From Chrysomallon squamiferum (Eukaryota > Animalia > Mollusca): 64,000 bases of DNA. The stretch covers positions 20,770,001 to 20,834,000 of the forward strand of contig CM022672.1 of the NCBI GenBank assembly GCA_012295275.1, given 5' to 3'. Of this stretch, positions 10,357 to 64,000 are shown piece by piece. The translations under genes were made by a program, and so were the position numbers. The notes under the pieces were generated by a model. That model was not told the DNA's origin. It saw only the letters and a program-made list of their open reading frames with translations, and searched no databases. Position 1 is the stretch's first letter, and each line of letters starts with the position of its first letter.

Positions 10357-11114
10357 GAATGTAAGTAAATAAATAAGTAAGTAAGTAAGTAAATAAACAA
10401 AAACAATAAAAAACAAATAAACAAACAAATATGTTTTGATAGTTCTTAGGTGAATTATTTATTTATTCTTACCTGTTAGGATGTCCAGGGCCTTAGTGAT
10501 TTGTTTTGTGGCATATGTCACTTGCCAGAACTCAAGTTCAAAACTCCAGTATTTAGTAGTATTCACATTCTGTGGGTGGCCCATGTAAAACTTGCAGGAT
10601 TTGGGTTCCTTCACGCTGCGTTTGAGGAAATTTTTATCTTTCTTGGTTTCTTTTCCATCGATAGACATCTCAAGTCCAGTCTGTACACTCCATGATATTT
10701 GAAACTGCAGGTACTTATTCACTGCGATGTCACTCAGATAGACAGTCCACTCTCTGGACTGTGTGCTGACTGTGACAAAGAGTCGTTTTCTGAGGTAGTA
10801 CACAGCAATCCCCACCCCTTCTTTCTCCTCCCCGCAGTTTGTCATCAGATATGTGTTGTCCTCCAGAGTGACAAACTTCACAGAGAATGTGACAGTGAAA
10901 CCAAACTGACACTGATCAGGGTCCATCAGACACGAGCCAATCACATCTGTCCAGTCAATATACTGATCTCTGTCATTGAAAACTACTGCATGTTTGTTTC
11001 TTGTGTTGATGATTAGCTGCAGTTTGCTGGTAACAGTGACATTGCCAGACGATGTGATCAGAGTGTTCCCATTTATCAGTTTAAATTCAAATCTCCTGTC
11101 ATCAACTGCATCAA
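159..11114 (-). CDS. Module R8 (LamG + VWDE-like unit), 16 exons, 3027 nt
   Basis: Exons: 10473-11114 (LamG), 10068-10288, 9755-9847, 9184-9573, 8947-9023 (CMSVNDPHITTFDG), 8635-8698, 8043-8252, 7692-7806, 6993-7101 (GLCGTFNG), 6603-6766, 6253-6359, 3130-3273, 2743-2923 (CLNDCSGHGKC), 1655-1845, 1191-1394, 159-273. All phases are compatible. Confidence 0.88.
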
Positions 11115-14100
11115 CTGGAAAGTTGTAGTAATGAAAAATTAACTTTTTTTTTTAATTCAAAGATTCATTTTACATATTTGTTTTATATATATAAAATAGA
11201 ATGTATTCTATGTAATAATATTTGGATCTGCAACTAGTGTGGCTTGATATTTTGAGGTGTAACAAGCGTGACATGGTACAGTGACAATTAACAAGTATGA
11301 CATAGTACAGTGACATGTAACAAGTGTGGTATGATATACTGACATGTAAAAGTAACATGATATATTGACATGTAACAAGTGTGGTACGATATACTGACAT
11401 GTAACAAGTAACATGATATACTGACATGTGACAAGTGTAATAAGTGTAACTGTACACCAGTCTGTAAGAATATTGTGATGTGAAACAAGTGTAACTATAC
11501 ACTGACATGTAAGAACACTGATGTGAAACAAGTGTAACTATACACTGACATGTAAGAACATTGTGATGTGTAACAAGTGTAACTGTATACTAACATCTCA
11601 GTGAGGTCCAGTCTGTTTTAGAAATAACTGTTTGACACACTTGTCTTGGATCATCAGGATTAAAGAAGCCATTTTCATAACAAACATCTTTGATGATACA
11701 CACATCAGTCTGCAAAATATTTATTTCAGTACAGATAAAGACAGTGATAACATCATTTTGATGCAGAAAAAGGCAGTGAAAACATTATGTTAGTACAGAT
11801 AAAGAGAGTGATAACATTATTTCAATACAGATAGAGAAGTGATAACATTATTTTAGTTCAGATAAAAACATTGATAATATTTCAGTACAGATAAAGACAG
11901 TGATAAAAGTATCTTAGTACAGACAAAGACAGTGATAGCATTATTTTAGCTCAGATGCAGACAGTGATAAAATTATTTTGGTACAGATGAAGACAGTGAT
12001 AAAAGTATCTTAGTACAGACAAAAACAGTGATAACATTATTTTAGGCATTATTATCATCATAATTTGTTAAAAATGTTATGGTCATAGAAATCTACAACA
12101 ACAATAAAACTTTTAAAAAAAAAAATTCTTACCAGCAATAAAAAATATGTGACTTACCCTGTTTGAACATCCTTTCTGAACAGAGCATGTCTGACATACA
12201 GAATCAAAGCTGATAAATACTTGTGCATTGCTTCTTGTTTTCCCATTGTTGCTTATGGAGATGTTGAAAATGCCAAGTGCACTGACTCTGCATCTAACTA
12301 CCTCTGAGCTGTCAAAAACTGCAAGTGATGTTTGTTCTTTACCCTACAAAAATCACAAACTTGTACTGGTAACTTCTACACATGATGAAAACAAAATATG
12401 TATGTCAGAAACATAAAAAAAAAACAGAAAAACATAAAAATAAAGACAGAAAGTCAGAGACAGAGAGAGAGAAAGGAGAAAGACTGATTAAAGGGGAGAG
12501 AGAGTTATTACTTACATCTGATGAAATCAGATGACAAGTGAGTTGACCAGACTCAGCAAACTGCAGACCATACACTATGACCTCTGTACATTCAGCTTCA
12601 CGAATGTCACACACAGGCATGGCTAGAGACACAATTTGAGGTGAGGTTTCACTTGAGATGTCACAGACAGCACCTGTCCACCCATTGTTACATGTACACA
12701 CACCTGATTTATTAAAAGGAAATTAATTTTATTAAAATGTTTTGTTTTGTTTTATATTAGCTAACTATTATAATTTTAAACACACTTTTATAATGTATCA
12801 TGTATGAAACAATTAAACAAATGTTTCATCAGTTTCTATCCAAATGAATAAAAAGTACCAAAATTGTTGTTTTTTTTTTAGGGGTCTACTAATGGTAAAC
12901 ATTTATGTGATTTTACAAACATATATTAATATGATAAACATTTATGTGATATTTAATAACACTTTTGTGATATTTATTAAGATTATTTGTAATGTTTTTT
13001 AAAATAATTATTTGTTATATTTATTAAGATATATGTGATACTTACCACTGATACATGTTCCATGGTTGTTACAGTCATCAATACACATGTGGTTGGCAAA
13101 GTTAGGTAACTCCACTGTTCCTGTTTTGTCTGATGTAATCCACAAGTCAATGTTGATGCTGAGTTCCACCTCACAGAATAACATGATGTTGTCCAACATT
13201 AAACTCACCCACTCCAAGCTGTCTAGTATCTGTAGATAACAAATAAACAAATAAACAAACAAACAAACAAATAAATAAATAAGTAGTTTAATAAACAAAT
13301 AAACAAATAGATCAATAAAAAGTTTAATAAATAAATAAATTACAGGAAGAAGAAAAAGAAGAGGAAGAAACAAACAAACTTAAATAATAAAATATATTCA
13401 ATACAAATGAAGAAATAAAACAAATAAACAATTAAAAAATACAGAAAACTAAATATGATGTTCTGTTATTAAATTACCTGGATATCTTCAATGCATGAAT
13501 CCAGACTGAATTCTGCATCAATGGTAACCAGACTTTTACATGACTTGGCAGAAGCAGAAGCTTCTACAACAGCATTGCAGGCAGTCACAGCTCTTTCCCT
13601 GGTGATCTTTCCAGCAGTTGGCCATGTGAACTCCTAATTTGTTATTTATATTTTAACATAAAACATCTGTGTAACATTCACATACAGATTGCAGTATTAA
13701 AGTGCTATTTATTTTGTTCTTGTCAATTAATCAAATTGAAATGATGCAAACTGCTTTCTGACTGGCTATGATTACTGAGTCAGAAAGTATATGTCTTAGT
13801 AAGTATTAGTTTATTTAGAAAATCAATGTTTTCACACAAGATGATATTCGTTTTGCTTACACAAAAATATTTTAAATAGAGAGCATTGTAAGACAGTATA
13901 AAACAGGTTACCCTTGGTTTGTAATTGATGTCAAACTCCCACGGCACTACTTGTTGTGTAGGAATACACACATCAATCTTCTTGGCAACAGAAACTAGAG
14001 ACTCTGTGATGTCAACTGCACCTGTAATTAACTAAACTCATCAGAAAACAGCAAACTGTTAAAATGTTTTACTAACTGAGCATTTGGTTCTTATTAAGAC

Positions 14101-17100
14101 TATATTACTGAGTGTAAACATGCATGGCAGAAACTTTCATTTATAAACAGCATAATAGCATATACAATTCATTGTATGTTAAACATGATCAATATCAAAG
14201 TCTGCAAGTTTCTAACCCTTTTCAAGAGTTTTAGTTTTGCTCTGAGTACAAGACATGACATCCATGTTAGGTGCACACATCTTCTTTCTGTCCTGCAAAC
14301 AGTCACAGTACACAGTTAAATCTGTTTCTTTCACATCTTCTGCTTCAAAACATTTCCCATTGTAGAAACTGTCCTGTGAAGCCACCCTGTACAAATACAG
14401 TACAATTTATTTTTACATGTATTGTTCTTTATATCTGCACACTGCAAACTTTATAGTACAAATTTTTAAGCAACAGAATTATAGCATTAAACTAACTGTG
14501 CAAACTGCTGTGCACAACACATAAATACAGCTATGAAATATAATAATGAAAGATTACTAATTCCTAATGGAGCAAACTTTTGCTGCACTAATTCACTTAA
14601 GTATTTCATTCTAGGGGAAATCCTTAATTTTTGACATTCCAAAAATTATAATTGCTGCCGAGTAAGATAATGACTTTCATACTGCTCAAAAGGTCATGCA
14701 ACAGTAAGATACTTCATTCCAATAGATTAAAAAAAAAAAAATGAAAACAATTTTTTTTTTAGAAATAGTAATCATCACTAACCTCCAGCTATGAGAGAAC
14801 TCATCAGGTTGTTTCTGATTTCCTCCATACAGCTTTCCATCCAACTTGATAAAGTCATTTGACTTGTCTCCATCAAATGTTCCACACAGACCTAGTTATA
14901 TATATTTGTCAGTTATACATACACAGAACAAGTTAATACATATCAATAATAATATTCATCATGTAAATACATACACAAACCTTGTTTCACATTTAATTAA
15001 AATATTCATCATTTAAATACACATATGGACCTAGTTACATATTTAATTAAAATATTCATTATTTATATACATATACATATCTAGTTTCATGTTTAATTAA
15101 AACAAACAGGAAATCAATAGAAAATGAAATTGACGAATTTTGACTTGTTTACCTTCTCTATTCATGAAATTAAAAGAATATGAAATACTCAGCAAAATGA
15201 CTTCTTTACATTATGTTTTCATGAAATCAGTAGAAGAGGCTTTGTATAATCACAGTGAGGAATTTTGACTTGTTTACCTTCTGTATTCATGAAGTCAACA
15301 GAAGAAGCTTTGTACGAAACAGTGAGGAATTCTGCTGTTACTCCTCTCCCATACTGTACAGTAACAACCCCCCCTGTAGGCAGTATCACCTGAAAACAAA
15401 TAATACTTTTAACACGTTTCAGTATTTGTAGAGCACTGTTCAGGAACTGGATGCAGCTGTGTTAAATAATTGTCTTTTTTTTACATAGAATACAACTCTG
15501 TGTGTTTAAATCTTGTGTTTAAATTCTTTTGTGTTTAAATACTTGACATTATCTGTGCATATCTATTACTTTGTGTTAAAATACCTGATATTACCTAATA
15601 CTTTGTGTTTAAATACCTCATATTACCTAATACTTTGTGTTTAAATACCTCATGTTACCTGTATGCATGTATCTAATACTTCATGTTTTAATACCTGATA
15701 TTTCCGGCCTCCACTATGTCTGATTATCTGAGTTTGTGCAGTGAGCTCTCCATTCAGATACAAGCGTGGTATTATTGGTTGACGTCTGCCACCTTTCTGT
15801 GCTCCACAGCGATCAATGACAATGATATCATCTCCAGACTTGACAGCCACAGCACAGTTACATGAAGCTTTCCCATTGCAGTTACGCAGAAATGTTCTTA
15901 TCTGTAAAAAAAATATTTTATTAAAGACATTTCATTGCAGAAATAATGCTAATAATACTACTACTACTAATAATAATAATGATGATGATGATAATAATAG
16001 TAAAAACAACAATAACAATAATAATAATGATGATGATGATGATGCTAATGATGATAGTAATAAAAGTAATATGTCTGGTTGTGAGTTGTTAAATTATTGG
16101 CTACTTCCCATTCCAGATAAAGCTCATGATGCAGTTAGATGGGTAATAATTTATCAAGTTAGCTAGGTACTAAATGATAGTGTTTATTACACTCACCTCA
16201 TATGGCAGTGATTTGTGTCTGTAAAGAATGAACTCTCCTTCTAAGTAGTTGTTGTATCGTCTATAAAATAACAACATTCAGTTACTTACTCTTTGGTGCA
16301 TTGGTTCCATCCTTAAAATTAATCATAAACCAAAACAGTAATTTTTTCATGAAATCTCAATAAATTACATATTTATCCTTTTGAACAAGTGTGAATAAAG
16401 AAGAACTTACTTTTTGTCAAATGTTGTAAAATGAGGGTCACCAACAGACAGACAGACGGCTAACTTGTCTCTGTCCTTGACAGTCAGCTGTTAAAATATC
16501 GGTTTCATCTTTTTAGAAATATCTAATAATTTGTCTCACATTAAAGTGTCAGAATCTTAATATCTTTATTGTTTACAAATAAAACAAATTAATTATCTAC
16601 TATCCAGACAGGTTAATCTACTTCTGTATAAAACACTTCACAATTCCTTTGTCAAGAGATAAGTTTAACATATTTATATCTGTCATCAAAAATTACAATA
16701 GAATATCAAAATACCTTTAATAAATTACAAATTATATTTGACAAGTAATGTAATATATGTGTAGTTCTAAATTATTATTTTGGTTAAAAAATACTATTTA
16801 TACTAAAATGATTCACTAACATACCTCTATTTGTAAAATGTAACTGGACTATGAATACAAATGACCAATGACATAGATAAACATATGTGTATTATAAACA
16901 CAGGTAAAATACCTGGACATCTCCCACAGTGACACTTTGAACTTGCAGTTGTGACACGACAATGTTGGCAGTCACAGTGATTGTTCTCTTTCTGTCTCTG
17001 TCTTTCAAGCCATCAGTGGATCCCTTTCACTGCAATTCTCAGCACATCAGACCACTTTTCTGTCTGTATCTCAAATGTACATGCATCTCTGCCTCCTTGA

Positions 17101-20100
17101 CTGACAAACACAGCCTGGGAAATCTCAAACCCTGTCAAACACTTCACTTCTCTTTTCTCCCGTTTCAGCTCTGTCTGCACTGTTAGTCTGCAGTCTTTGT
17201 CATCACGGTTACACAGAAGTTTGGGAGGGAGGGTTGCTTTCACTTCAATGTAGCCATAGGCTGCTCCTTCATACACTGTCAGTTTGTCTGTCAGTAACTG
17301 TGAATGATAACACTTGTAAACATTTTATTGAGCACTACAAAATGTTATCTGTTTGAGAGAATCTTTATTCTTTTTGGTTTTGTTTGGTTAAAACAATATT
17401 AGTAAAATTACTATTTACACACAAAAATTACATACCATTCTTTACTATAAACTAATGTGTTCCCATGCTAATATCTCTATACTCACTTCAACTTGTGCCA
17501 CCAGAGGGCGACTCTGTCTCCAGGGCCCATGACTTTGTTCACAGTTTGCAGCCACACAGGCAGAAAAAGAACAGGAAATCTTGTCTCCAAATCTGAGATG
17601 TTCAATGAGTGAGTGGTTCAGAGAATGTTCCAGTTTGCTGCCAGACACATTTTCAATTTTCTCTGACATGATAACTTTACTGTTGATTTGCCACTTTACA
17701 TAATACTGAAGATCTACTTGTTCCAGTTGACTTGCTGAGCACACCAATGATGATTTACCAATTCTAAGCTCTGGTTCTTGTTTGAATTCAGGTAGATCTA
17801 AACAAAACATTAAAAACACAATACAGTGACTACTCAGTGGAATCCTACCATAAATGTCTGAAGTAAAATGAATTTCAATAACAAAATGGATATTCTACTT
17901 CCATGTTTAGTTCAGTTTTTGAAATATAAAACATCAACTTTGGTGCAAAAATTTGATGACAAGGGCTTTCTGAATGAGTCAGAGACTGCAAGCAAGAGAA
18001 AGAGAAACATTAAAACTTACCCAGTTTGATATCAAACCCACTGACAATGACTTTGTGAGCAAACACAACATTCCAGTCTGACATGACACAATGTGTAAAC
18101 TGATTCCTTGTGAAATGACGACCAAAGTAAAATTTGTGACCAGAAATTCGGAATCCTCCAAGTTTTCTTGCCTTCAATTTCTTATCCACCATCTGACCAT
18201 TAAAATAGAGACTGAGCCCAGCTTGCTGACTCCAAGAAAACTCAATGTTTACAAACTTGTTTGTGAATGTTCTTTCACTGAACCTTGCGTTAACCACCCA
18301 CTCATAATGAGAGGTTACAACACGCAAGTACAGGTAATGTCTCTCCCACCACATGGTCATGCCAGCCATATCGTCATCACCACTGGAGAAGATGTACTCA
18401 CTGTTTCTGAAGGAGATCAGCTTAAGCTTGAATGACACTGTAAGACCAAACTTGCATAATGCCAGGTTTCCTAGGCAACTGTCTGACATATCTCCAAAGT
18501 CCACAAAGTCGTGTTTTCCATCAAGGAGTAAAGCTTTGGCTCCTGTAGGTCCAATCACAAACATTGGCTTCCCATAAAGTGTCAGATTGCCAGACATTGT
18601 CAACAGAAGGTTACCAATAATGTGAAGGAAGCCATATCTTCTGATAGTCACTTCTTTAACTGAAATAGTATTTAAAATACATGATACTTAGTGACTTCTC
18701 TACTGTTCACAAAGCTGTTTTGTACTCATATGCATTTATTATGCACTGTTTTATACTGACACAAATTCACTATTCAAAATTCTGTATTGACACACATTCA
18801 CTACTCAGTTTTATATTGACACATTCACAACTCACAGTTTAATATTGACACAGATTCACTACTCACAGTTGTATATTGATACAGATTCACTGCTCACAGT
18901 TCTATATTGACACTACTTACTGCTGAGATGAGACCATGATGTGGTTGATGCAGCTATTTTACAAATCTGTATTTTGTTCTCTGGGTTAACTGATCCCTCT
19001 TTGTAGCAGCTGTTGTCAATAAAACAGACGTTTTTCTGTAAAAACAAAGAATGTTTTTTTGTGTTTATTTGTTGTCTGTTTGTTTGTTTGTTTATTTATT
19101 ATTAAATTTATTGATGTGCAAATACACACTCACCTGTGCTATACATTTCTCCAGTGAGCACACCTCACAGTTTGAGTCGTAGTTAATGTACTTCATCTTC
19201 TCACTTAATGTGCTGCCATCATTGCTCACTGCAACCATGTAGCTAGCAGTAACATCAACTTGGCAGATAACAATTTCCGAACTCATAAAAAATGCAGGCA
19301 CTTTTTTAGTACTGCTTTCTTGGAAACTGCCATCATTTTGTTTCTGTAAGTAAAGTAGTAATGTGAGAAGTGTTATCATGTAGGTTAATATCAGTTTTAA
19401 TTACCAACAATCAAATAGTTAATGTAAGTCAAAAATATAATACAAATTAATGTCAGAATTAATGGTAACATTTAAATCGTCAGTAAGTGTTAACAGATAT
19501 ATGTTAATAACATTTTTGAATTAAAATTCAGACATGATAAAACAGCACTTTCAGTTTTTCTCCCCTTTCTATTTATGGATATTTGTATTTTATAAATATT
19601 TGCAGTCATCATGAGATTTTAAATGATCTCAAAAAATGTCTCATTAGAAATATGAATGAAAAGAAGAAAAATGTAACAGTGACATGTAATATCAGAAATG
19701 TTTAATTTTCAAACACATATGGAATTACAACAGAGTTACTCAGCTATCATTAAAGACATCTAAACCACTTAGATATAATATTTTAAACCTTAGATATAAA
19801 ATGAAATAAGTGATAAGATTGTGTTAAACTATAAATAAAATATTAAAATAAAATATCAGTATTAAAGATGTATGTTGTTTTAGATACAATAAAGATATAT
19901 TAATCTGTATATATAATAAACTTTAGATGTAAAAGTAAAGGTTTATTAAACTGTTTATAAAATAAAGGTGAAAGCAGATTAAACTGTTTTAGATATATCA
20001 TACTAACAGTTAGAACTGTAAGATGACAAGTAAGATTAGCTGATTTCACAAATGGTCCTCCATAGACAATGATGTCTCCACAGTGATCATCAACACGGAT

Positions 20101-22348
20101 GTCACACAAGTCACGTTTCAGTGACTCTAACGTTGGTGCTGCTGTAACAGTAACAGAACAGTCATCTCCAGCAAAGCCTTCCTCACAGTCACATGTTCCT
20201 GTAAAACGATTTCACAGTGAATTACATAACAAGACTTATTATAGATATTTGTCTCACTGTTACTACAGATAACAATACATAGCAAGACTTGTTATTGATA
20301 TGTTTCTCACTGATTCTGTAAACTGATTTAATTACATAATTTTGACTTGTTAGAGATATATTTCTCACTGTTACAACAGATAAAAATTAATAATTTTGAC
20401 TTTTTATAAATATGTTTCTCACTGTTACTACAAACAGATAATAAGACTTGTTATAGATATATTTTTCACTGTTACTAGAAACTGGTAATAATACATAACA
20501 ATAGTTGTTATAGATATATTTCTCACAATATTCTTGATAGTACAAGGCAGAAATAATTATAAAAATTTACACAACAATTTTAGAATTTCAATTATAGAAA
20601 ACTGTAAACAAATTTAATATTATCATTCAATGTACATTATAAACACAAAATTTTATCAGTTAAAGTGTGTTTCACACATAAATTTTATCACTATATTTTA
20701 TCATCAGTTGAAGACAAACCTTGTAGGCAGTTTCCATGTGTGCTGCAGTCACCTGGGCATATGGAGTTAAAAATGTCTGGCATGACTACTGAGCCATCCT
20801 GTCTGGTCAGCTGAGAAATGTCAAATGGAATCTTTATCAAACACTGCTCCTTGATGTTAGTTAGCATCTCCTCTGCCCAGGTCTTGTCATCAGTTAGCTA
20901 CAAATAACACATTATGAACACTTGTGTGTTGTTACTGTTATTATATATACAAACTATTCTACAAATAAACACATTATAAACACTGGTGTGTTGTTACTGG
21001 TACAAACTAACCTGCAATAAATACTTTTATAAAAAGAAACAAACTCGTACATAATTACAATTGAAACAACTTGTATGTCATGTTTTAATTATGAGTTAAT
21101 GTGTCTGATGTTAAAACAGCTCTTGAAGTATGTAATGAAAAATGATTGTGTGTGTATTGAAATCTCTAACCTGTATGTCCATGATACATGAATCAAGGGC
21201 TGTTTGGTAACTGGTTGCGATTGTTCCCAAACATCCACTGGCTGATGCAGATGCTTTTACAACTTTCTCACAGTATGCCTTCACATCAGCATACTCCATC
21301 CCACTTGGTGTAGGCCAGGCTGCCTCCTGGAAACAAGAGATAAAAGTTATAACTAATAAAATGACTAAGAAGTAACAACAAAAACATATTTTTAACAACT
21401 GATCAACACATTTGAATAAAATTGCTATGTTTGCATAACAGAGTAATCTGATAGAGCACTACTAGGAGCAGGGCTGCCTTAATAGCATTATAGGCTGCTA
21501 GGCACAGAAATACACTGGCACCCCTACCTAACAATGTTCACATGTAATAAAAATTAAAATGAATATTGTTCATTATCTTAGTAAAACACAAGTTAAATAT
21601 TCATTTTCAATAAAACATTAATTTAAAATTTAGTATAGCATAGCATTTATTTATTTACTCACAGAAAGTCAAAAATACATTTTGCCATCACAAATCTCAG
21701 TAATAATTGATAGATGAGAAAAGCTCAGTGGACAATTTAATGAGGACTATCCTGTGACTGCCACCATATTCTATGTATATGTACACTTACTGGAAAGACA
21801 TACTCGACATCATGTTCAAAGATTTCTTCCTGTTCAACACTGCCACATTTAGCTGGACTCACAGCCAAGTCAATCAATTCTTTTGTTATGTCTTCATCTG
21901 TAACAGGAGAGTTCATGCAATGTATTACAAAACAAATGACACTTTACGCAGTGGATATAATACATGGATACAATATTTATAATACTCTGCATTACAGGCA
22001 TAATAAATGTATAAATAATAATACTGTTACAAACATATCAAATGTAATGTAGATGTAAAGAGATGTAAGTTATGTCACTGTGTTAATTAGACGCATCTGA
22101 CTCACATCGTTTCCTATTTGTTCTGCTGCCAGTGTCTGCTGGTGGAGAACAGTCAAGGAGATACTTGGTGTCGCTGCAGCTGATGTCATGATTCTCACGA
22201 CAGTCACAGTACTCTGTCCAACTCTCAGCATCAGCATCATCAGGGCAGTAGCCATTGTACAGTGTGTCCTCAGTTTTTACTCTAAATTACATATCATACT
22301 GTGATTGTTTTTGTAACAATGACAACATTATCATCATCATCATCATCA

Positions 22349-22380
<32 letters not shown>

Positions 22381-34300: not shown

Positions 34301-34323
34301 AAACTTAAGTAAAAGGTTTTTAC

Positions 34324-34366
<43 letters not shown>

Positions 34367-37300: not shown

Positions 37301-37519
37301 AGCTTTTCTCATGAACTGTCACTGACATGTTTTTACATGAATTGTATGATATTAACACTATAAAAATCAAATGTGTAAAAGAAATGTCATTCACTGACGT
37401 ATGTCTGTTTATAACAAAGTTCTTCAGCTCAGAAACCTATTTCTGTTAATTTCATTTATGTAATTTCTAATATCATTTCTAGAGTGAGAAATCTGTAGTT
37501 TTTGAACTGCTGGATTTAA

Positions 37520-37581
<62 letters not shown>

Positions 37582-40500: not shown

Positions 40501-41374
40501 TTTTGTTATGCTTTTTTCACTTTTACAAAAAAAATTCAACAAACTAAAGCTAACATTTCATCATGGTTGAAAAGGTATATTCAACAAAAGCTTTCTAAAA
40601 ACCTCACAGGTAAACAAATAATAAAACAACCTTTAAAGATGCTCCACTCTTTGTAATTCTCAAATGGCTCACAGATGAGAGAGGCATTGTGTTTGGCTTT
40701 GTCACCAGAGTGATAACATTTGTTGTCAATGAAACACCTGTCAGACTGCAATAAACAAATAATAAAATTTTTCATTTTATTACATCTGACCACACTGTTT
40801 ACATAAATTGATACATTTAATTTACATTGTTAGGACTACAGTTTACACTGATATATTTAGTGTAAACATCTTACTGTACAATATTTACTTATATTAATAC
40901 ATTTGTTGTAAGTTTACACAAACCCGACTTTTAGATAATAAAGGCCTAAGTTTTTACACTTATTTTACACTTACTACAAATTTGCAAAAGCCTGACTTTA
41001 TACATGTTTTTACACTTACTTTAAAGGCCTGACTTTGCACACCGTTTACATATTTTATACTTACTATAAGTGTACAAAGGCCTGATTTTGTACACTGGTG
41101 ACAGCTGGCACTGTATGCTGTGAATGTGACATTTTCACTGAAGATGACTTTGTTGTTGGTGACAGACACAATGTAGCTGCCTGGTTTAGGCAGTTTGCAG
41201 ATGACCTGGTTGAAGCTGAAGAATTTGGCAGTTACTATAATTTCATCACCAACAGCTTCATAGCTTCCTTCTGCCAGCTGCAGAATGAAACATATTCAGT
41301 AATTTAATATTTTTTAATATTAATTTTGTGATTTTGTGGTAACAGATATAAATCTTACTATGGGATTTTTCATT

Positions 41375-41406
<32 letters not shown>

Positions 41407-47400: not shown

Positions 47401-50400
47401 AATGTTGCCTAACTCACATTAAAGGTTTGAAGTGGTGTCAGTTCTGACACTGAAGTGCTGAATGAGTTCACTTTGTACTGGAATATGACTTCTCGGATCT
47501 GGTTGCTGTCTGTCAGAGAGTCAACTGTGGCTTTCACAGTGATGTTCTGAGGTTGCTGCCAGTTGGATGTTGTGAACGTAGCAAAGCAGCAGGCCTGTTC
47601 TAGAGGGGGTGATGCATCAAACACAACTTGGTTCATGTACCCCCCAGACTGACACTGCAAGTCTTTATCTGAACTGTTTACACTCCAGTGAACTGTCACA
47701 GAGCAGGATGTTGACCCTGTCTCACACAGGAATGATGGTGGGAAGTTTGACACAATCTGAAAATCCTTCCCTGATTTTCCTTCCTCAATAGAGATTTGTC
47801 GTTCTCCAACAACCTAAAAAGGAAGAAATTTGAAAATCTATAAAGTTTTATTAACACAACAGCTGTTAACAAACTGCAGTCCATAACTCATTATTTTTCA
47901 TGAACATGATTTGTATAATAACATCACATTTTTATACAGGAACAAAACATTTTGTACAGTACGAACAGATACTTTATCCAACAAAAATACATATTGGTTT
48001 ATACTTCTTACAAACCTTCACTGAAAGTTCAATCTGATTGCTGCGTCTGAAGGCACCAACAGATTCATTGCAAGTTGCTTGTAAACATGCTGACACACCA
48101 CATGATATCTACAATTTATTAATAATGAAAAACTACATTTCCTTTTTTCAATATTTAAAAACAAATAAAAACAAAAATATAATCAAAGTGAATGTAATTT
48201 AATCTCCATATCATTAATAATTTCAGCTTCAGATGATTGTCACATCAACCTCAGGTTAAAGTTATGTTACTCAGTTAACACATATTGCAATTTCTTTTTC
48301 TCCAGCAATGTATAGTATTTAGATATTTAAATTTATCCAGCCTTACTATTATTAATACAAGAACTTCAACTGTAAACAAAACTAGAGACCTAGACTAATG
48401 AGAGATAAGGTGAACTGAGTGAGACAAAGAGAATTAACATTTTGTAATGTATTATGCTCTTAACACAAATCTGTTTAATAATTATTTACCCTTGTTCCAT
48501 ATTTCAGGTTTTTCAGAAATGTTCCATTCATGTAGACAACAGCTACTTTGTCTTTGACTACAACACCACTGATGTGATCAACAACATTGTTGTCAATAAG
48601 CCAGTCAATGTTGTAGGCAATGTCGGTGATGTCCAGTGTGGGGAATGAACACTGAAGTGTGTAGTTCAGTGAGCCTTGATGACGTGTAACCACTGCCTCT
48701 GGATTTTTTTCAATGATGGGAAAGTCTGCATTTAGATGGAAAAATCATCATCATCATCACCATCATCATTATTATATTCACTTTTAAATGATATTTTTAA
48801 TGAACCTTGTAATAGACAGATTTATTAAATTTATGTGTTATAGTAAAACCACTGATTAAGCCATCATGTTTACTAATTTTAAGATATAAATGTCATATTT
48901 GACTTTCAAAGATTTTAATATAAATGTCTAAACAATGTACTGTCCAATGGTATAGAGAACTTTTTAAAATTGTGATATATGTAAGTCTCTATGTTCCTTG
49001 TTCTAATACTGATTAATCACGAATTATTCATAAATTTTAATTTTGTTTGTGTTAATTCCAGAATAACCGAAGAGTCCTGAGAAAATATTAAAAAATTCAA
49101 ACCTGAATCACAGGTCCATTCCTCATAGCGATATCCAGACCACTTTACAAAACTGTTTGCTGCCAGTGACTGTGTCAAGTTGGACAGAGAACACACTCCA
49201 GCCTCTGGCACAAACTCAAGTGATCGACACAGGAACGATGTTTCCTGCAGACACAAGCGGCGACATTCACTTGCTGAGGAAACATTGCTGATGTCTCTCT
49301 GGTTGTGACCAAGAATAGCAAACCCAGGTTTGACAGTCCAGGAGATTCCATGTTTGTCACATGGATCTGATAAAAATAATCACATTTACAGATTTGTTTA
49401 ATAATGAATCTAAATGAAATTAATATTCATCAGAAAATATTTTAATAGAAAATTCAGCATATTCAAGGATATATTTCTTTAAAATATAAGAGAGAAAATA
49501 TTAAAATGTTTATGTGTAAAGTTAACTCACTGTTGTTACACATCCATTCATGATACTCCATGTCAGAGTTGACAGTGAGACTGGCAACATTTCTCCGTTT
49601 GTCTGAAGCTGACAGCAGACAGGTTTTTGATGTTTTATTAACACTAACAGATGAACAGATGTATGGACTGCTATATTTCTCAAGACAGGCCCGATGACAA
49701 TGTTCATAGTTTGACTCTGTTGAGTTGATTTCTTCCTGTGTAAAACCGGCAAGGAAAACGTCTGACTGTGTCATCCACATGAGTTCCAGAGATTGACAGG
49801 AATCTAAATATAATAAAACATGTTAATTTTAAATTAAATAAGCTAACTTTAAATAAGACAGGTTAATTTTCAATTAAATAAGTTAACTTTAAATCAGACA
49901 TGTTCATTTTAAATTAAATAGCTAACTTTAAATAAGACATTCATTTTAAATTAAATAAGCTAACTTTAAATCATACATGTTAAATTTGAATTAAATAAGT
50001 TAACTTTAAATCAACCATGTTAATTATAAAATAAGTTAACTTTAAATCAACCATGTTAATTTTCAATTAAATAAGTTAACTTTAAATCAAACATGTTAAT
50101 TATAAAATAAGTTAACTTTAAATCAGCCATGTTAATTATAAAATAAGTTAACTTTAAATCAACATGTTAATTTTCAATTAAATAAGTTAACTTTAAATAA
50201 GACATCAATTTTAAATTAAATAAGTTAACTTTCAATCAAACATGTTAATTTTAAATACAGCATCAAAGAAGATGATGTTTTTAAAGGTAAGGCAATGTCA
50301 CCTGGAGCTGTCTGCCAGGAAGTTACATTTTTTGTGGGATCACAGAAGTGTCTTGAATTGTTTGCACTGAACTCTCCCGCTTCATAACACTTGCCATCAA

Positions 50401-53400
50401 TTCGACATCCAGTGTTCTAAATTATATAATACCGTTAAGATCATAACAGTAAACATACACACATATACAACACAACCTACCATGATATCCAGTTTTCTAA
50501 ATTATATCATATCATTAAAAACACACATCAACATATGCACACACATATACACAAACACATGAACATACACAAATACACAAACACACATATAAAAATACAC
50601 ACATACACACTCACACTCATAAACATATACATGCAGGTATAATGTATGATGAGTACTGATTAAGAAACTCACTTTGTAAACACAGGACTGGTTGTTAGGA
50701 AAACACTGAAAACACAGAGAGTTGTACACCAGATATAGTGCTGCTGAACTCTTCATGTCTTTGTCATTCAGCACCTCAATGTAGTAGCTGCTGATAGTTG
50801 GTAGCTCACATGTCAACTCATTGATGCTGATGAAGTTAGCTTTTTTAATGATTGGGGCACCAACAGGCACTGATCCAGTTTCATTTGTCTGTGACAACAA
50901 CACATTTAAAATAGTATAACAGATGTGGCAATACAGTGTGTGACTATAACAGATGTTGTGTGTGATTATCACATGATAATTCAGTGTGTAGCTGTATCAT
51001 GATAATAGAATGTGATTAAAACACAGTAATAGTGTGTAACCATAATGTGATAAGTGTGTGATCATAATGTGATAAAGTGCGTGATCATAATGAGATAAAG
51101 TGCATGACTATGACAGGATAATAGAATGTGTAACCATAACATGATAATATACTGAATGACTATAACATAATACTGCTGTGTGATTATAATATGTCATAAC
51201 ACAGTGTGTGACCATAATGTGGTAATGCAGTGTGTGACTGTATTATTATAATACAGATTATGACTATATTATGATAATACATAGTGTGACATTGGCCATT
51301 GCAGGTTAATCATCTAAAAAGGATGATAAACAAACTGACCTCTGCTTTGGTAAATACACATCTTAGTTTCTCTGTATTATAAGTGTTTTTGTTGTAAACA
51401 GTGACAATGTGACATGAATCTTTGTAGATGTCACACATTCCATTGTTACCAAGGAAATACAAATTTGGTGGATCTGTTGTCTGGACAAAACAGTCAGCAC
51501 CAGCTGCTTCTGTTCCACAATCACAAGTTCCTAGAAAAAGTTTAAATTATAAATCATATCGTCCAAGAATCTAGTTTAAAATATAGTTCACATCTTCATA
51601 GAAACAAGATTATAATTAAAGATCACAACTTCCTAGAAGTATAGATAACTGAGTTCATAACTTCCTTAAAGAAAAATTTAATTTTAATTATTGTTCCTAA
51701 TTCAACAGTTTCTAAGCATGAAAAAGAGAAAATATTTAAATTTACCATTTTTGCAAGCAGCTATAATTCCTCCACAGTTTGCCAAACACAGAGTGTTTGT
51801 AATTTGTCGAGGAGGACTTGCAAATTGATATCCATCCTGTATTTCCCACAAACTCATGTTTCTACTCAGATGTATCAAACACTGCATTCTTACATTTTCT
51901 AAGGCTGTCTTGGTCCAAATAATATCTTCTGTGATCTGAACACAAACATATTTTAATTATTATTACTCTACTTACTTATATACCATTACATGTGTAGGCT
52001 AAACTGTCTCTATATATACAAGTCACTGTGTTATTTGTTTACAAGTCATTATATATTGTTATTATGCTTACAGATTATTCTGTCTTCATGTCATCATGTT
52101 AACATGTCTTTGCAAACTGTTTTAACTCTTTCAGGTTTTCATTCTTTACCAATATATTGACATACATATGCATGCATACATTCTCAAAAAGATACAAATG
52201 ACTTCGTTTTGACTGCATATTTTTACTGTTGTTGTTGTGGTAGTTGTGGATGTTACTGACATGTACCTTTAAATCCTGAACACAGGACTCAAGAGCATTT
52301 GTCCAGTGGATATCAGGCACTGATTTACATGTTATTGTAGCCAAGGTAGTGGAAAAAGCAATGTCACACATTCCTCTAACAAATAATTCTGGATACCTTT
52401 TGTTTGGTGTAGGCCAGCCATATTCCTGAAAATAAGTAGATAACAGTGTGGATTTCAAGATAATCATTTTTAATATGCATACTAACAGAACAAACTTTAA
52501 TAAAACTAGACAGATAACAGTGTTTGATAAAAAAATAATGAATATAACAATGATTAAGCAAGATGATGATATGATAATGTTTAAGAAAGATAATGATATG
52601 ATAATGATATGCCAATGTTTAAGAAAGATAATGATATGATAATATTTAAGAAAGATAATGATATGCCAATGTTTAAGAAAGATAATGATAGGACAATGTT
52701 TAAGAAAGATAATGATATGGCAATGTTTAAGAAAGATAATGATATGGCAATGTTTAAGAAAGATAATGATATGACAATGTTATGGAAGATACCTGTGGAA
52801 CTCGGTTGATATCATACTCAAAGTCAGGAAGAGAGAAAGTCACTGGATTCAAACACTTTGTTACAAACAGTGAGTTAGCAATCAAGTGATCTGTGATGTC
52901 ATTTCCTGAAACACAACATGTACTGATTTGTCAGCTGTATTCATGTAACACACTTAAATTTTATGAAAAACACATTTTAAATAAAACTGTCCTAGTGTCA
53001 TATATTTTTTCTGACCTAACTTTAGAGTCAGTGTTTCACTTCTGACTTACCTTTAATGTCAGAGGTACACAGTGATCTGTGATTTCCTTTCAAACATCTG
53101 TCCTGTCCATCAGTCTGACACAGACAAAATGTGTCCTCATGTTCTTTATCAGCCATGTCTTGAGAACAGTAACCAGTGTACAGGCTGTCTTTTGTCACTC
53201 TGTAACAGTGTAACACATATATATTTACTCTGTAACATAACAAGATAAGTAACATAAACAGTTACTTTGTAACAAGAGAAATAAAGTGTGACATAAACAG
53301 TTACTCTGTAAAAGTAACCAGTACTCAATAACAAATAGTAGTGATTACCCTGCAGCAGTAGCATATATCTGAGAAAAAGAAGAATATTTCTGACTTACCT

Positions 53401-54471
53401 CCAGCTTTTGGAAAATTTGTTTGGTTGATTAGCAAAGTTGGTGTTGCTGATGCCTGCTGGGTATTCATACAGTGACCCATCAGGCTGGGTAAAGTCATTT
53501 TGCTGGTTTCCATCAAATGTTCCACAAAGACCTGATAAATATTTAAATGTGATCAAAAGATTTTAAAAAAAATAAAAAGATAAAAATAATTCAGTACTGG
53601 AATAGTTATTATCTCTATCTGTAGAATGTTTCTTGATCAGCAAAATATATTTTTTATTATTACATATAACTTATAGATGCACATCACTTTGTGTATTGTA
53701 AATAAATTCAAATATCTCTTGTGCACTTCTAAAAGCAGTCTGTAGACACTAAAAATTAGAGTGGTAAGAGGAAGAATGAGTGGAAACATTATTTACCTTC
53801 TGTTTATTGAAATCCACTGCTGAGGGGGTCAGCCACACATTAAGAAAGTTGTATCCTTGTATAGCACTTCTGCTCACGTACACCATCATACCAGAAGGGA
53901 ACATTATCTGAAGATTATCATATTGTGATTACAAAAAAACAAGAACATATTATCTTATATTTACAGACACAAATACATCAGTATATTACATGATAGCTTT
54001 AAATACGATACCACCAAAATATTGTCCATTATTTATAAATGCACATACCATCAACATAATTATTTATAAAACCTGTATTATCAATATATTATCATAGTAA
54101 CATATCAGTTGTGACAAATAATGAATGAAGAAATGATAACTGAGCAATGTTGTAATTACCTGATACTCAATTCCTTCAAACTGACTGAATACTCGGAAGC
54201 CAGGAGTGAGAATTCCATTTCGAAACAGTTTTACCATGATGGGGTAAAATCCTTCTTTATTAAATGGTCCACACTTGTCAATAATGACAACATCATCACC
54301 AGCACGTGCTGCAACAGCACAGTTACAGGAAACTCGACCTGAACAGCTGCGGTAGAAAGTTCTCACCTAGAAGAATAAAAGAACATAAAATTAACATAAT
54401 GTTATTATTAACAGATGACTGTTTGTTTTCAGTGACCAATAACAATACAAATTTTTATAAACAATAAAAAA

Positions 54472-54502
<31 letters not shown>

Positions 54503-57500
54503 ATTCTCACCTCATAGGGCAAAGTTTTGTGTCGATACATAATGAATTCTCCTTCATAGTAGTTGTGGTAGTATCTAACCAACATAAAAGCAAATAAATA
54601 ACACAGTTATATAAACATATAAACAACACTACTTTATTAATACTATATACTAAATTGTATTATTACTATATATAAAACTATTATTACTGTATATAAAACT
54701 GTGTCATTACTATATATATAACTGTTTTATTACTATATATAAAACTGTATTATTACTGCATGTAAAACTGTATTACTGCTATATATAAAACAGTTTTATT
54801 ATTGTATATAAAGCTGGTATTATTACTATATACAAAACTCTATTATTACAGTATATAAAACTGTATTATTGCTTTATATAAAACTGTATTATTAATTTAT
54901 ATATATTTAAAACAGTATTATTACTATAAATAAAACTATATTATTACTCTATGTAAAACTATTATTACAACAAAAAAACACTATATATATATAATTTATT
55001 ATCATGTGCAATAAGATATGTTACTTACGTTCCATCAAATGTTGTCATATGTGGATCGTTGATAGACATACAGATGGATGGTCTATCCATGTTGACAATG
55101 GTTAGCTGAATATAGAAAACAAATGTGTGAAAGTTAACTAAACAAAATTAATGTTAAAATAAATATTTATCAGTTTTCTTAAACAACTTCAAGAAAGATG
55201 TATATGTCTAATGTTTGTGTACTACAAATCTGATATAATAATACATGATTCCAAAACAAAATTTCAACAGAAATTGATCAATTTCTAAAGTACCTTTAAA
55301 GACCAGACACATATGATTTTCTGCATCTCCCAGAGCAATAGTGCTTATATGATTTAAGAGTGAAGAAAATGAACAACAGAACTGTAGTAAATTGCAATAT
55401 GTATATTGTTTTTACAGACATTTATTAACTTTTAATCATTTTACCAGTGAAATGAGTAGTAGTATTACCAGTAAAATGAGCAGTAGTAATCCCAGTGAAA
55501 TGAGCAGTAGTAATCCCAGTGAAATGACTAGTAGTAATACTAGTGATATGAATAGTAGTAATACTACCAGTGAAATGAGTAGTAGTAATACCAATGAAAT
55601 GAGTAGTAGTATATTACCAGTAAAATGAGTAGTAGTAATACTAGTAAAATGAGTAGTATAAATACCTCAGACTTCACTGTAACAAGACTTTTCTCTAGAG
55701 TTGAATTGACAAAGTATTTCCTTGTTAGAGTGAACTGCCATGTTTGATCTGTGTCGTACTTGTTGTCGATGGTTGCTCTGATGTTGATGTTGAACTGTGT
55801 GTCCCACCTGTCTGAAGTGATTGCCACTTTACACAGCTTCATCTCCTCACCCTTCTCTGTAATCCTGACAGACACCTGTGGAATGCTGTTACCATCAGGG
55901 CATCTCACTTCACTGTTGTTACCAGACACACTCACAGCTAACTCCAGCGTACAAATGTCTGAATCAGACAGTCCCATGTCTCGACACAAGATGTATGGAG
56001 GAGCTGTAGCTTGCACTGCCATGGTAATACCATCTTCCCCTTCTCTTAAAGTGAGACTGCCTGAATTATCAAAGTTTTCTATCTGAAAGACAGAAGTTGT
56101 TATGTGCATGTTAATTACATCATTTTTCTAACTGGAACTCTTTATCTTTCTTAAAATTACTGGACAGTAAATTTTAGATAATATATTCAGTAAATTAAAA
56201 CATCAGTTTTTACCTTTATCTGAGCCTTGTACAGCTCTGACATGGCCAGGAGCCCTCTTGTGTTCTCACAGTCGTCTACATAACAAACACTAACAGCACA
56301 CTTAACCTGCAAACACAAACACATTATGTTATACACACTTAACCTACAAACACAAACACATTATGTTATACACACTTAACCTACAAACACAAACTCATTA
56401 TGTTGTACATGCTGAACCTACAAACACAAACACATTACACACTGAACCTACAGCACAAATACATTGTTATCATTCTAGTTTTACAATAATTTTGTGAAAC
56501 TCTTGAGTACTGTATCTATGACAAATACTAATATTATATGATGTTTCATACCTACGTATGACAAATTCAAATTTTATATCATGTTTCATAACTATGTATG
56601 ACATATACTAATTTTATATCATGTTTCATATCCATATATGATAAATACTAATTTTACTTACAGTTGAGTTGTCTTTCAGTGTGTTAGTATGTGTTTGTGA
56701 CAGAAATTCATCAGTGTTCTCTGTCATCCAGACACCATCAACACTCCACAACACATCATACTGAACATCTCGTTTGTTGTCTTGGAGACGTGTGAAGTGA
56801 CATCTGAAAGTATCGCTTCCTGGTCCATGGAACATTGGGATCAGGAGTGCTTTGTCAACACTGGGTCCATGACGGTCTGCAGGAGACCCTGAAACATTTA
56901 ACATTTCATTAGAACATTTTTAAAACTGTGACAAACAGAGACAAATGTCTAATTTTTACATCAAATAATTACTGAAAGATGTCAATGAAAATATTTTATT
57001 GGAAGCATTAATGATATTTCATTGTAAATATTCACTAAGAGTTCAGTGCAAATACCGTCTGTACAAATTCGTTTCTGATACTGCCAGCCAGGAGCCTGGA
57101 TCCAGTCAGAGTCAGATCCATTGGACAGGATGCAGATGCCTCGTGCTGGGTGAAACTTGACTGAAGTGCAGGCTTCATCAGAATCACAGAGTTGTTGACA
57201 AATGTCGGCTGTCCACACTTCATCTGTTATTTTAACATTGTTCTCCTGAGTCACGCGGTTTATCTGCACCTCCCATTTCTCCGTCTTACCAGCACACGGC
57301 TCTGATAAAAACATTGTTAAAACATGATTAGCATGTTTTTTAAAAAAAGAAAAAATTAAATAACTATGATGTTTGTTAACGGATAGTTGATTCAGAGAAA
57401 ATATCTACACTAATAGAATTTTTAAAGATCTTACTTTCATCTCATGTTAAACAACCCAAAGAGAACCTGTAATTAATCATCCATTATCAGACATATATAA

Positions 57501-59547
57501 TAAATACAGATGAATCTTATATCTTTCTTTAATTAAAGTTTTCAACTGACAGTAGACACCACTGCCTTTACGTACCAATATACTGATAATGAGCATATAA
57601 ACAGTAATGTGCATGTCACAGCTGTTAGATAAATGTAATTATATGGTACAATGAACAGAAATCAGAGATGTCAAATTACAATATATAAAACATTTACGTT
57701 TTTCACAACTCCACTCTTCATAAACAAAGTGACTGCCAAAGGGGAGATAATAATGTCCAACATCAGTACGCCTGTACTTGGAAAGATGGCAGACCTGACT
57801 CTCAGAACTGAAATCAATGGACCGACAAAGAAAATGTGTTTCCTGCAGGCAGAGTTTGCGACAATCTTCAGACTGGTTGACGTTTGTCACTGACTTGTGA
57901 TTGTGGAAAGCTATGGCACTGAGTTCTGATTTCCACATAACAGCTGAATTTAGACACGGACCTGCAGCAAAAATATCTTTACTGACATTTTACCTTCTGA
58001 TTAAACATTGAAAACTGTGTACATCACTGCATAACACAGGATGAAAATGAAAGAAGAAAAAATGGAGTTAACAATAAATTTAGTGATTGTCTATTATACA
58101 CAGTTACAAATACATATATTATCTATTACTCAAAATTACAAATAAATGTATTGTCTTCTGCTCACAGTTACAAATAAACATTCTGTCTGGTACATACAGT
58201 TACAAATAAACTAACTGGTTCTTTGACTCCAGAGCTGTCTATTCTCGGTTGAGTTACAAATTTGAGAAAAGTTATTTGGGTTGATTTCTAGATGAGTCCT
58301 GCATCTTCCTTCAATCACGCATGTTTTGTCCTTTGATAAGAAATAATGTTTTGAATAACTCTACAGTAGTCTTACATCTTTTTTGTTGTAACAAATTTAT
58401 ATATATATATATATATATCGTTTTTTTAAAAATATAAATAAACACCAGAAGAATGTGCTTTTATATATTACAGACATCAGCATGTAAAACATGGATATGT
58501 AGGTCTATGTATCACTGTATCTGTTTGTATAATTGTGTATGTGTGTTATGGGTTATATTAGTATATGTTTATAAGTGTCATTGCAAGTATGTGTATTAGT
58601 ATGTATACTTATGTGTATTAGTGTATATGCATGGGTATTAGATATAAGCATGTGCATTAATATGTATATGGATGTTATTAGTGTACATGGATATGTACAT
58701 GTATTAGTTTGTATATGTAAATGTATTTGTATAGGTATATGTATTTGCATATATATGTGTATATATATATGTGTTTATATATGTGTTTATATACGTGTTT
58801 ATTGGTGTTTATATATGTGTTTATTGGTGTTTATGTATGTGTATATTAGTTTGTATATGTATATGTATGTGTATTAGTATGTATATGTAGTGTATTTGTA
58901 TACAAATGCATATATACACTGACACACACACACACATATATATACACTAATAGACAGATATATATTAATTATTATGTATAAGTGTATTAGTGTACATGTG
59001 CATTAGTATGTATGTACATTAGTATGTATGTGCATGTGCTTTAGTGTGTATATGCATGTGTATTAGTGTGTATATGTATGTGTATTAGTGTGTATATGTG
59101 TCTGTATTAGTGCATATGTATATGTATTAATGTTTATGTGTATGTGTATCATTGTGTATGTGTATTAGTATGTATATGTATCTGATTTAATCTGCTTGTT
59201 GTTTTATGATTAATACAGTATTTTCACAAACACAGAGTTACCTTCTGTGAGCAGTTTCCTTGTTTAGCATCACACGTGTAACACACAGGGTTGTATGCCA
59301 GGAAGATGTGGGCTGCACTGCGAGTGAGAACTCTGTTCTCCACACTGATGATGTAGTTCCCTGTCTTTGGAAGTGAACACTCGATGTGACTGTCACTAAT
59401 AAAAAGAGTAGTGACTGCTTCATGCCACTCACCCTCAGTCTCATAGCCTGATTCACTAACCTGCATTTACAATATATATATATAAACACATTACTTACAC
59501 TGTTACAAAAATTACCTAAATACTTATTTATATAAATATATATTATG

Positions 59548-59583
<36 letters not shown>

Positions 59584-63999: not shown

Positions 64000-64000
64000 C

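What the first reader, a model, noticed from the sequence alone, without database searches (positions are those of the whole stretch)
10473..57961. Variable cassette slot between modules: PAN-PAN, PAN-PAN, empty, empty, LamG, LamG, LamG
Seen: at the same phase-1 position, after the 115-nt CxIDGxCY linker exon and before the [YLF]P...FxCxF exon, the gene carries different content. There are two PAN exons (57056-57961 and 49103-49803), nothing (introns 40376-40630 and 34269-34744), or one LamG exon of about 640 nt (26289-26924, 18021-18659, 10473-11114). Every cassette exon is symmetric phase 1-1 with a length divisible by 3 (264, 246, 273, 264, 636, 639, 642). Established: 1-1 symmetric exons are the classic substrate of exon shuffling, and PAN and LamG are carbohydrate/protein-binding modules. 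Inference: a constant scaffold displays interchangeable binding domains in an ordered N-to-C pattern, and any cassette or whole module could be skipped in frame to give combinatorial isoforms.
Basis: partly seen in the sequence, partly recalled or inferred. Interest (0 to 1): 0.8.

Follow-up and report, generated by a model that had tools for sequence, protein, structure and literature searches.

The report
Giant mollusc membrane protein, fixed inserts
This snail gene is the middle of what is likely one membrane protein of about 11,000 amino acids, built from eleven copies of a single unit, and the predicted sugar- or protein-binding domains between the copies are not swapped freely: other snails carry them in the same order, and a scallop and an argonaut each match the part of that order their records cover.

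Summary
In detail: four PAN exons, two empty introns and three LamG-like exons sit in the same phase-1 slot between repeated VWDE-type cores, all 1-1 symmetric. PAN is confirmed by Pfam (4 of 4); LamG by mutual homology and a confident jelly-roll model. The slot is the head position of a VWDE-like unit; single-core relatives carry other heads (D8C, VWA, MAM, SUEL, discoidin). The cassettes are not interchangeable today. Each core, PAN and LamG groups with the same position in Aplysia; scallop shares the PAN half, argonaut the LamG run. Cores followed by LamG form one clade in their back halves, so cassettes were likely copied with the cores. RNA joins the linker to the one LamG tested; no skipping was seen there or in three annotated Aplysia isoforms. 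An assembly gap likely hides one unit and a third empty slot. Overlapping models give signal peptide, discoidin, eleven cores, a Thr-rich stalk and a transmembrane tail, about 11,000 residues, split over several uncharacterised loci. Eight paper searches found no description; the scan had not noted it on other DNA. Function is inferred: a long multivalent cell-surface tether.

The parts
58216..64000 (-). Core unit U1 (partial; end of VWD to linker exon 58216-58330); gene continues upstream of the window
   Evidence: exon model; groups with Aplysia U1, 100/99
57698..57961 (-). PAN exon, slot 1a, phase 1-1
   Evidence: Pfam PAN_1 E 1e-10; groups with slot 1a of Aplysia, Elysia, Biomphalaria, Pecten, 90/93
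57056..57301 (-). PAN exon, slot 1b, phase 1-1
   Evidence: Pfam PAN_1 E 2e-8; slot 1b clade 96/91
50302..56876 (-). Core unit U2 (Ig_VWDE-like, second beta domain, VWD, helical part, EGF, beta domain, linker)
   Evidence: 100/100 with Aplysia, Elysia, Pecten U2; 1-bp frameshift near 53800
49531..49803 (-). PAN exon, slot 2a, phase 1-1
   Evidence: Pfam PAN_1 E 6e-6; slot 2a clade 100/99
49103..49366 (-). PAN exon, slot 2b, phase 1-1; closest window paralogue is slot 1a, not 1b
   Evidence: Pfam PAN_1 E 1e-8
40631..48725 (-). Core unit U3
   Evidence: 100/99
40376..40630 (-). Empty slot (phase-1 intron between U3 linker and U4)
   Evidence: empty also in Aplysia, Elysia, Pecten, Bradybaena
35730..40375 (-). 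Core unit U4, front part
   Evidence: 100/99 with Aplysia U4; 1-bp frameshift near 37180
35428..35627 (.). Assembly gap (200 N), likely hiding the rest of U4, a third empty slot and most of U5
   Evidence: orthology of the flanks
34745..35427 (-). Last two exons of a core, likely U5
   Evidence: mean score 196 to U5 against 162 to U4
34269..34744 (-). Empty slot (phase-1 intron before U6)
27405..34268 (-). Core unit U6; exons from 32229 down are joined in RNA contigs
   Evidence: 100/99; 1-bp frameshift near 33500
26289..26924 (-). LamG-like (ConA-type jelly-roll) exon, slot 6, spliced in
   Evidence: RNA joint 26924-27405; model pLDDT 92; fold Z up to 17
18921..26182 (-). Core unit U7
18021..18659 (-). 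LamG-like exon, slot 7
   Evidence: Pfam Laminin_G_3 E 4e-5; 64% identical to the same slot in Gigantopelta
11595..17797 (-). Core unit U8
   Evidence: 62% identical to Gigantopelta orthologue; 1-bp frameshift near 17015
10473..11114 (-). LamG-like exon, slot 8
   Evidence: groups with Aplysia slot 8, 97/93; homologous to slots 6 and 7
159..10288 (-). Core unit U9, ending in linker exon 159-273; gene continues beyond the window
   Evidence: 100/100 with Aplysia U9

Best explanation
The window holds nine tandem VWDE-type units of one intron-rich snail gene, and the slot between units carries PAN pairs, nothing or a LamG-like domain in an order shared with other molluscs, so it likely encodes the middle of a single fixed membrane protein of about 11,000 residues that would act as a long multivalent cell-surface tether. 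Shown: the exon structure, the domains, splicing of one core to its LamG and to the next core, and unit-by-unit orthology. Inferred history: the family unit is 'head domain + VWDE core'; heads entered the phase-1 intron in front of the core by exon shuffling; early in molluscs the unit was tandemly duplicated in blocks (LamG acquired once and copied with the back half of the preceding core; bare cores copied as a run), and the order was then frozen. Inferred layout, tip to membrane: signal peptide, discoidin, U1, PAN-PAN, U2, PAN-PAN, U3, U4, U5, U6, then LamG before each of U7 to U11, with a Thr-rich stalk before U11, a transmembrane helix and a conserved tyrosine-bearing tail. Inferred function: VWD-containing beads form a mast, and the discoidin, PAN and jelly-roll domains bind glycans or extracellular partners at set distances from the cell, anchoring mucus, matrix or other cells. 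Confidence about 0.8 for architecture and history, about 0.35 for the ligand and role.
For: Exon model with consistent phases. RNA contigs join core exons, linker to LamG (one contig in X2, 115 letters on the short side; matching loose ends in X1 and X3) and LamG to the next core (X4, a few bases off). Gigantopelta model = U7-LamG-U8. Aplysia, Elysia, Bulinus, Argonauta models with 3-5 cores in one frame and the same slot order; Pecten PAN-PAN, PAN-PAN, empty; Aplysia and Biomphalaria N-termini with a signal-peptide-like start and F5/8 type C; three Aplysia models lie on contigs of one length (4,987,337 nt), sum to 11,000 residues, and two overlap in a LamG. 8 of 8 window cores group with one Aplysia position each, all starred. 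Back halves of all cores followed by LamG: 98/97. Slot LamGs form one side of a branch against 17 other LamGs, 84/92. Single-core relatives carry D8C, VWA, MAM, SUEL, F5/8C, LDLR-b or LamG arrays before the core and mostly a transmembrane segment after it. Last unit and tail conserved between Aplysia and Nucella; its model is confident (pLDDT 83.5) and its best matches are mucin and VWF D assemblies, over the VWD part only.
Against: No transcript or model spans all eleven units; the full length is pieced together from predicted models of several species. RNA covered one of seven slots, from 4 runs of one study, as contigs that drop rare forms. Four 1-bp frameshifts and a truncated EGF in the window's core exons are read as assembly errors but were not checked against reads. 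The hidden-unit test missed in 1 of 7 controls. One Bulinus model lacks the first PAN pair. No ligand, tissue or localisation data; a shared fold shows no function.
Confidence: 0.72

Rival explanations
1. One reading: cassettes and whole units are skipped in frame to give combinatorial isoforms of a binding scaffold.
For: Cassettes and whole units are phase 1-1, so skipping would keep the frame. One Bulinus model goes from linker to the next core without PAN-PAN. Six of seven slots untested by RNA.
Against: At slot 6 the linker joins LamG in 3 of 4 runs and no skip joint is among the 15 joints shown (2 more not shown). 0 of 3 Aplysia isoforms skip any of 4 LamG slots; they differ in the Thr-rich stalk. 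Each slot holds one fixed content, never alternatives. The Bulinus model also lacks core exons.
Confidence: 0.1
2. A tandem array of separate head-plus-core genes, or two or three shorter genes, that gene predictors fuse.
For: RefSeq splits the Aplysia locus into three genes; single-core paralogues are the family norm; an amphioxus model holds two cores and may be such a fusion; the window has a gap and frameshifts.
Against: RNA bridges U6 to LamG to U7. In the exon model no stop, signal-peptide or transmembrane exon lies between units; in the multi-core models a transmembrane segment appears only after the last core. The split points differ between species, and each unit boundary is spanned by at least one model.
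Confidence: 0.08
3. Same architecture, but the protein works mainly as an immune or symbiont-recognition receptor whose LamG heads are under diversifying selection.
For: RNA differs from the window at 40 of 594 bases in the slot-6 LamG against 52 of 1276 in core exons in X2 (Fisher p 0.016); 25 of 36 changed codons are non-synonymous.
Against: Not significant in X4 (p 0.11) and reversed in X1; pN/pS stays under 1 (about 0.6-0.7, from the counts); no genome-wide baseline and no matched DNA; between species LamG is about as conserved as the core (64% against 62% in Gigantopelta).
Confidence: 0.1

Closest known systems
[quoted passage not shown]
   Same: The window's exon profiles map in order onto a protein named VWDE from amphioxus (P0048): Ig_VWDE, VWD, helical part, EGF, beta domain, linker. 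Orthologues of the window gene hit Pfam Ig_VWDE, VWD and teneurin-type EGF.
   Different: Eleven cores instead of one; head is discoidin, PAN or LamG, not D8C/D10C; one EGF per unit, no EGF array; membrane-anchored. The VWDE orthology study looked at deuterostomes only.
Single-core lophotrochozoan VWDE-like membrane proteins with LamG arrays (Haliotis LOC124272364, Ylistrum LOC132563855, Lingula XP_013398006) and the two-unit Tubulanus LOC141899868
   Same: Same core, same LamG type, often a discoidin domain, transmembrane segment after the linker. Tubulanus has LamG-core-LamG-core-TM, a small version of the design.
   Different: Heads are stacked in front of one core rather than placed between many cores. 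All are uncharacterised or carry automatic names.
Gel-forming mucins, VWF and FCGBP (tandem D assemblies)
   Same: Beads-on-a-string of VWD-containing units; best structural matches of the unit model; a Thr-rich stalk in Aplysia.
   Different: No C8, TIL or E domain found by Pfam; TM-scores near 0.22, covering only the VWD part; membrane anchor; lectin-like inserts between beads.
Dscam1-type and protocadherin-type combinatorial receptors (recalled, not from a call)
   Same: Repeated extracellular modules on symmetric exons.
   Different: Those choose among alternative exons at one position; here each position has one content, fixed across species, and no skipping was seen.

Membership tests
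VWDE family | VWD domain followed by EGF-like domain | tested here: met
   Pfam VWD and EGF_Teneurin on the Gigantopelta orthologue of U7-U8; window exons 46-85% identical to it
VWDE family | VWDE-type Ig domain before the VWD, same core order as a named VWDE | tested here: met
   Ig_VWDE above cut-off in Aplysia, Elysia, Pecten orthologues; window profiles map in order on amphioxus VWDE P0048
VWDE family | N-terminal D8C/D10C domain (PMC8930769, passages) | tested here: not met
   N-terminus of the Aplysia and Biomphalaria orthologues is F5/8 type C; D8C found only in single-core relatives
VWDE family | Single VWD core with repeated EGF-like domains | tested here: not met
   nine cores in the window, eleven in Aplysia, one EGF each
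VWDE family | Orthology to vertebrate VWDE | not tested
   no vertebrate sequence was identified among the rows of the trees; filed as VWDE-like, not as VWDE
PAN/apple domain | Pfam PAN_1 above gathering score | tested here: met
   4 of 4 exons, 26-41 bits against 21.4
LamG-like / ConA-type jelly roll | Profile match above cut-off | tested here: inconclusive
   1 of 3 window exons at E 4e-5, under the cut-off; 5 of 15 aligned homologues hit Laminin_G_3; profile finds pentraxin PTX3 at E 3e-4
LamG-like / ConA-type jelly roll | All-beta jelly-roll fold over the whole exon | tested here: met
   slot-6 model pLDDT 92; Z 16-17 to bacterial jelly-roll domains including a sugar-binding arabinanase domain, Z 11-13 to laminin, neurexin, collagen IX NC4 and pentraxin domains. 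Slots 7 and 8 by homology only
LamG-like / ConA-type jelly roll | Carbohydrate or calcium binding | not testable with these tools
   needs binding assays
Gel-forming mucin / VWF D assembly | VWD-C8-TIL-E unit | tested here: not met
   only VWD found by Pfam in 8 orthologue or paralogue models; structural match limited to the VWD part
Combinatorial cassette-splicing receptors | Several alternative exons competing for one position | tested here: not met
   one content per slot, same across species
Combinatorial cassette-splicing receptors | Transcripts that skip cassettes or modules | tested here: inconclusive
   none at 1 of 7 slots in contigs of 4 runs; none in 3 Aplysia isoforms

The most novel reading that the evidence does not exclude
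Molluscs share an undescribed 11,000-residue cell-surface mast, kept unit for unit since before snails, scallops and cephalopods parted, that works as a ruler: each kind of binding head (discoidin at the tip, PAN pairs, a bare spacer, then five LamG domains near the membrane) captures its ligand at a set distance from the cell, a stalk-ended isoform without anchor releases it into mucus, and allelic variation in the first LamG tunes what is recognised.
Probability: 0.2. Interest if true: 0.75.

Novelty: new variant of a known kind. Interest (0 to 1): 0.5.

Why it matters
If the pieced-together protein is real, it would be an exceptionally long membrane protein, conserved position by position in a whole phylum and hidden because databases split it into several uncharacterised loci. 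It shows in one gene how a VWDE core takes up different head domains at one phase-1 intron and how block duplication then fixes them, and it gives a defined set of domains to test for a family whose molecular function is largely open even in vertebrates (PMC7390686, passages). The more exciting first reading, a combinatorial isoform generator, is not borne out by the data seen.

Tried and rejected
No whole genome is held, so the gene's ends were taken from relatives. RNA was laid only on 23275-32415; the PAN slots, both empty slots, slots 7 and 8 and all four frameshifts remain untested by reads. Pfam found no family for the exons of the second and third beta domains. A 3-sequence LamG profile found nothing in the PDB; the 15-sequence profile did. 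The Atlas gave no result. A plus-strand ORF at 5142-5366 that scored weakly against a PAN exon was not found by the PAN profile: chance. A Thr-rich loose end in X1 at 26255 has no acceptor site there and its letters are not in the window: rejected as evidence of an alternative exon. In the quick tree (51 rows) U6 of the window was unplaced; after leaving out 14 partial or redundant rows it joined Aplysia and Bulinus U6 (37 rows). The front-half tree does not resolve relations between positions and gives 4 changes by preceding against 5 by following cassette, so it leans the other way from the back-half tree. Paper searches without a description of this protein: (five locus ids, 0 papers); only listings and abstract starts were seen, except passages of PMC9117669, PMC8930769 and PMC7390686. 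Supplements were not read; mollusc proteome or transcriptome tables may list these loci. The scan's own index held no look-alike.
Full report
Setting. The window is 31% G+C, intron-rich and holds one 200-N gap; no whole genome is held. Self-comparison of open frames showed one minus-strand gene of repeated exon sets running through the whole window. The closest protein found is from the vent snail Gigantopelta aegis, 64% identical to one LamG exon, so the source is likely a related gastropod.

Observation. I modelled 117 exons. Each unit has about fifteen exon types with the same phases. All eight linker exons are 115 nt and end in phase 1. Pfam confirms 4 of 4 PAN exons; only 1 of 3 LamG exons scores, below cut-off. 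The three LamG exons are homologous to each other (22 and 29% identity to slot 7; one relative hits all three). The weakest, 26289-26924, folds with pLDDT 92 into an all-beta domain that matches ConA-type jelly rolls over its whole length: Z 16-17 to bacterial domains, 11-13 to laminin, neurexin and pentraxin domains. It is a LamG-like jelly roll of the Laminin_G_3 kind, not clearly a canonical laminin G domain. The symmetry itself is expected: an exon kept in a phase-1 intron has to be 1-1, and five core exon types are symmetric too.

Splicing. Contigs of four RNA runs of one study were laid on 23275-32415. They join the core exons as modelled, join the linker to the slot-6 LamG (a contig in X2; loose ends with linker letters in X1 and X3) and, a few bases off, LamG to the next core (X4). 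So two units and their cassette are one transcript. No joint that skips the cassette is among the 15 shown; 2 were not shown, and contigs drop rare forms. The other six slots were not covered.

What the slot is. The repeated core is the VWDE core: orthologues hit Pfam Ig_VWDE, VWD and teneurin-type EGF, and the window's exon profiles map in order onto an amphioxus protein named VWDE. A search with one core gave 1147 proteins at E 0.001, of which the best 150 were returned. Most of those long enough to map have one core, a variable N-terminal part and often a transmembrane segment after the linker. In 31 scanned with Pfam the part before the core held D8C, VWA, MAM, SUEL lectin, F5/8 type C, LDL-receptor propeller or LamG arrays. 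D10C is the domain reported for vertebrate VWDE (PMC8930769, passages). The slot is therefore the head position of a head-plus-core unit, and in the family as a whole the head is indeed exchangeable.

The order is old and fixed. The Gigantopelta model is U7-LamG-U8, exon for exon. Longer models exist in Aplysia, Elysia, Bulinus and Argonauta and in Pecten, Biomphalaria and Bradybaena. Mapped with the window's profiles they read: Aplysia discoidin, U1, PAN-PAN, U2, PAN-PAN, U3, empty, U4, empty, U5, empty, U6, then LamG before U7, U8, U9, U10 and, with a Thr-rich stretch, U11, then a transmembrane helix; Elysia PAN-PAN, PAN-PAN, three empties; Pecten PAN-PAN, PAN-PAN, empty; Bulinus empties then LamG twice; Argonauta up to four LamG slots. 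One Bulinus model lacks the first PAN pair but also several core exons. The three Aplysia models sum to 11,000 residues and two overlap inside a LamG. In the core tree (37 of 51 rows; partial and redundant rows left out) each of 8 window cores groups with one Aplysia position with starred support. PAN and LamG domains also group by slot across species. Window paralogues are 32-38% identical to each other and 33-43% to their Aplysia orthologues. That snails, scallops and cephalopods parted about 500 million years ago is recalled, not from a call.

A hidden unit. Exons before the gap match U4 (341 against 230 for U5); the two exons after it match U5 best (196 against 162), with 6 of 7 controls correct. 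The gap likely hides about 7 kb with a third empty slot, which would make the window agree with Aplysia and Elysia.

How the pattern arose. By following cassette the whole-core tree needs 3 changes, the minimum, against 5; in the back-half tree all cores followed by LamG form a 98/97 clade and those followed by an empty slot an 88/85 clade; the front-half tree is unresolved and leans the other way, 4 against 5. Slot LamGs form one group against other LamGs (84/92). The simplest reading is one LamG insertion followed by block duplication with breakpoints inside the core, not repeated swapping. The two PAN pairs are not copies of each other: slot 1a is closest to slot 2b.

Isoforms. Three annotated Aplysia isoforms keep all four LamG slots they cover; they differ in the Thr-rich stalk, and one ends there without the last core and anchor. 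With the RNA result this gives no support for combinatorial skipping, but the test is thin.

Likely working. The last unit and the cytoplasmic tail are conserved between Aplysia and Nucella (43-44%). A model of the Nucella protein is confident and resembles mucin and VWF D assemblies in its VWD part. With a signal-peptide-like start and one transmembrane segment, the product would be a type I membrane protein whose eleven beads hold discoidin, PAN and jelly-roll domains at set distances from the cell. That these domain types often bind glycans or proteins is established knowledge, recalled; binding here is untested. I favour a multivalent tether for mucus, matrix or other cells. Recognition under diversifying selection is a weaker rival: the slot-6 LamG differs between RNA and DNA at mostly non-synonymous sites, but the excess is significant in only one of three runs compared.

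Caveats. Four single-base frameshifts and one truncated EGF lie in core exons; none falls in the stretch laid with RNA. They are read as assembly errors because the gene is spliced and conserved, but this is unchecked. The full length rests on predicted models.

Novelty. Eight paper searches found no description; the VWDE orthology study covered deuterostomes only (PMC7390686, passages) and the equinox paper treats VWDE as a single-VWD class (PMC9117669, passages). Supplements and most subscription papers were not seen. Interest 0.5.

Noticed in passing
window ~53800, ~37180, ~33500, ~17015: Four single-base frameshifts in otherwise conserved core exons, at or near short homopolymer runs; likely long-read assembly errors.
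   Followed up: partly
window 41987-42158: This exon of U3 stops short of the first half of the EGF motif that Pecten U3 and other units have; real loss or assembly fault.
   Followed up: partly
window 26289-26924: RNA of three runs differs from the window at about 7% of bases here, 25 of 36 changed codons non-synonymous; X1 shares only some of the variants in the 3' part, suggesting mosaic, deeply diverged haplotypes. Core exons differ by 3-5%.
   Followed up: partly
window 17487-17797, 29694-29965, 24660-24962: Unit-specific intron changes: two exon pairs are fused (U8, U6) and one exon is split by an extra intron in U7, the latter seen in RNA.
   Followed up: no
P0176 (Aplysia LOC106014199 isoform X3): Annotated isoform ends in a long Thr/Glu-rich repeat without the last core and membrane anchor; a possible secreted mucin-like form.
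   Followed up: no
P0011 (Tubulanus) and P0024 (Haliotis cracherodii): Other multi-core VWDE-like membrane proteins: a two-unit LamG-core form in a ribbon worm and a three-core paralogue without PAN or LamG in abalone, so concatenation may have happened more than once.
   Followed up: partly
P0004 and P0178 (Argonauta): Two adjacent models share three units at 98-99.7% identity: a recent duplication or two haplotypes assembled in tandem.
   Followed up: no
window 5513-6273, 43800-44290, 35813-36022: Minisatellites whose unit includes exon ends or splice sites, giving decoy copies of exon starts; one obscures the donor of the exon at 6359.
   Followed up: no
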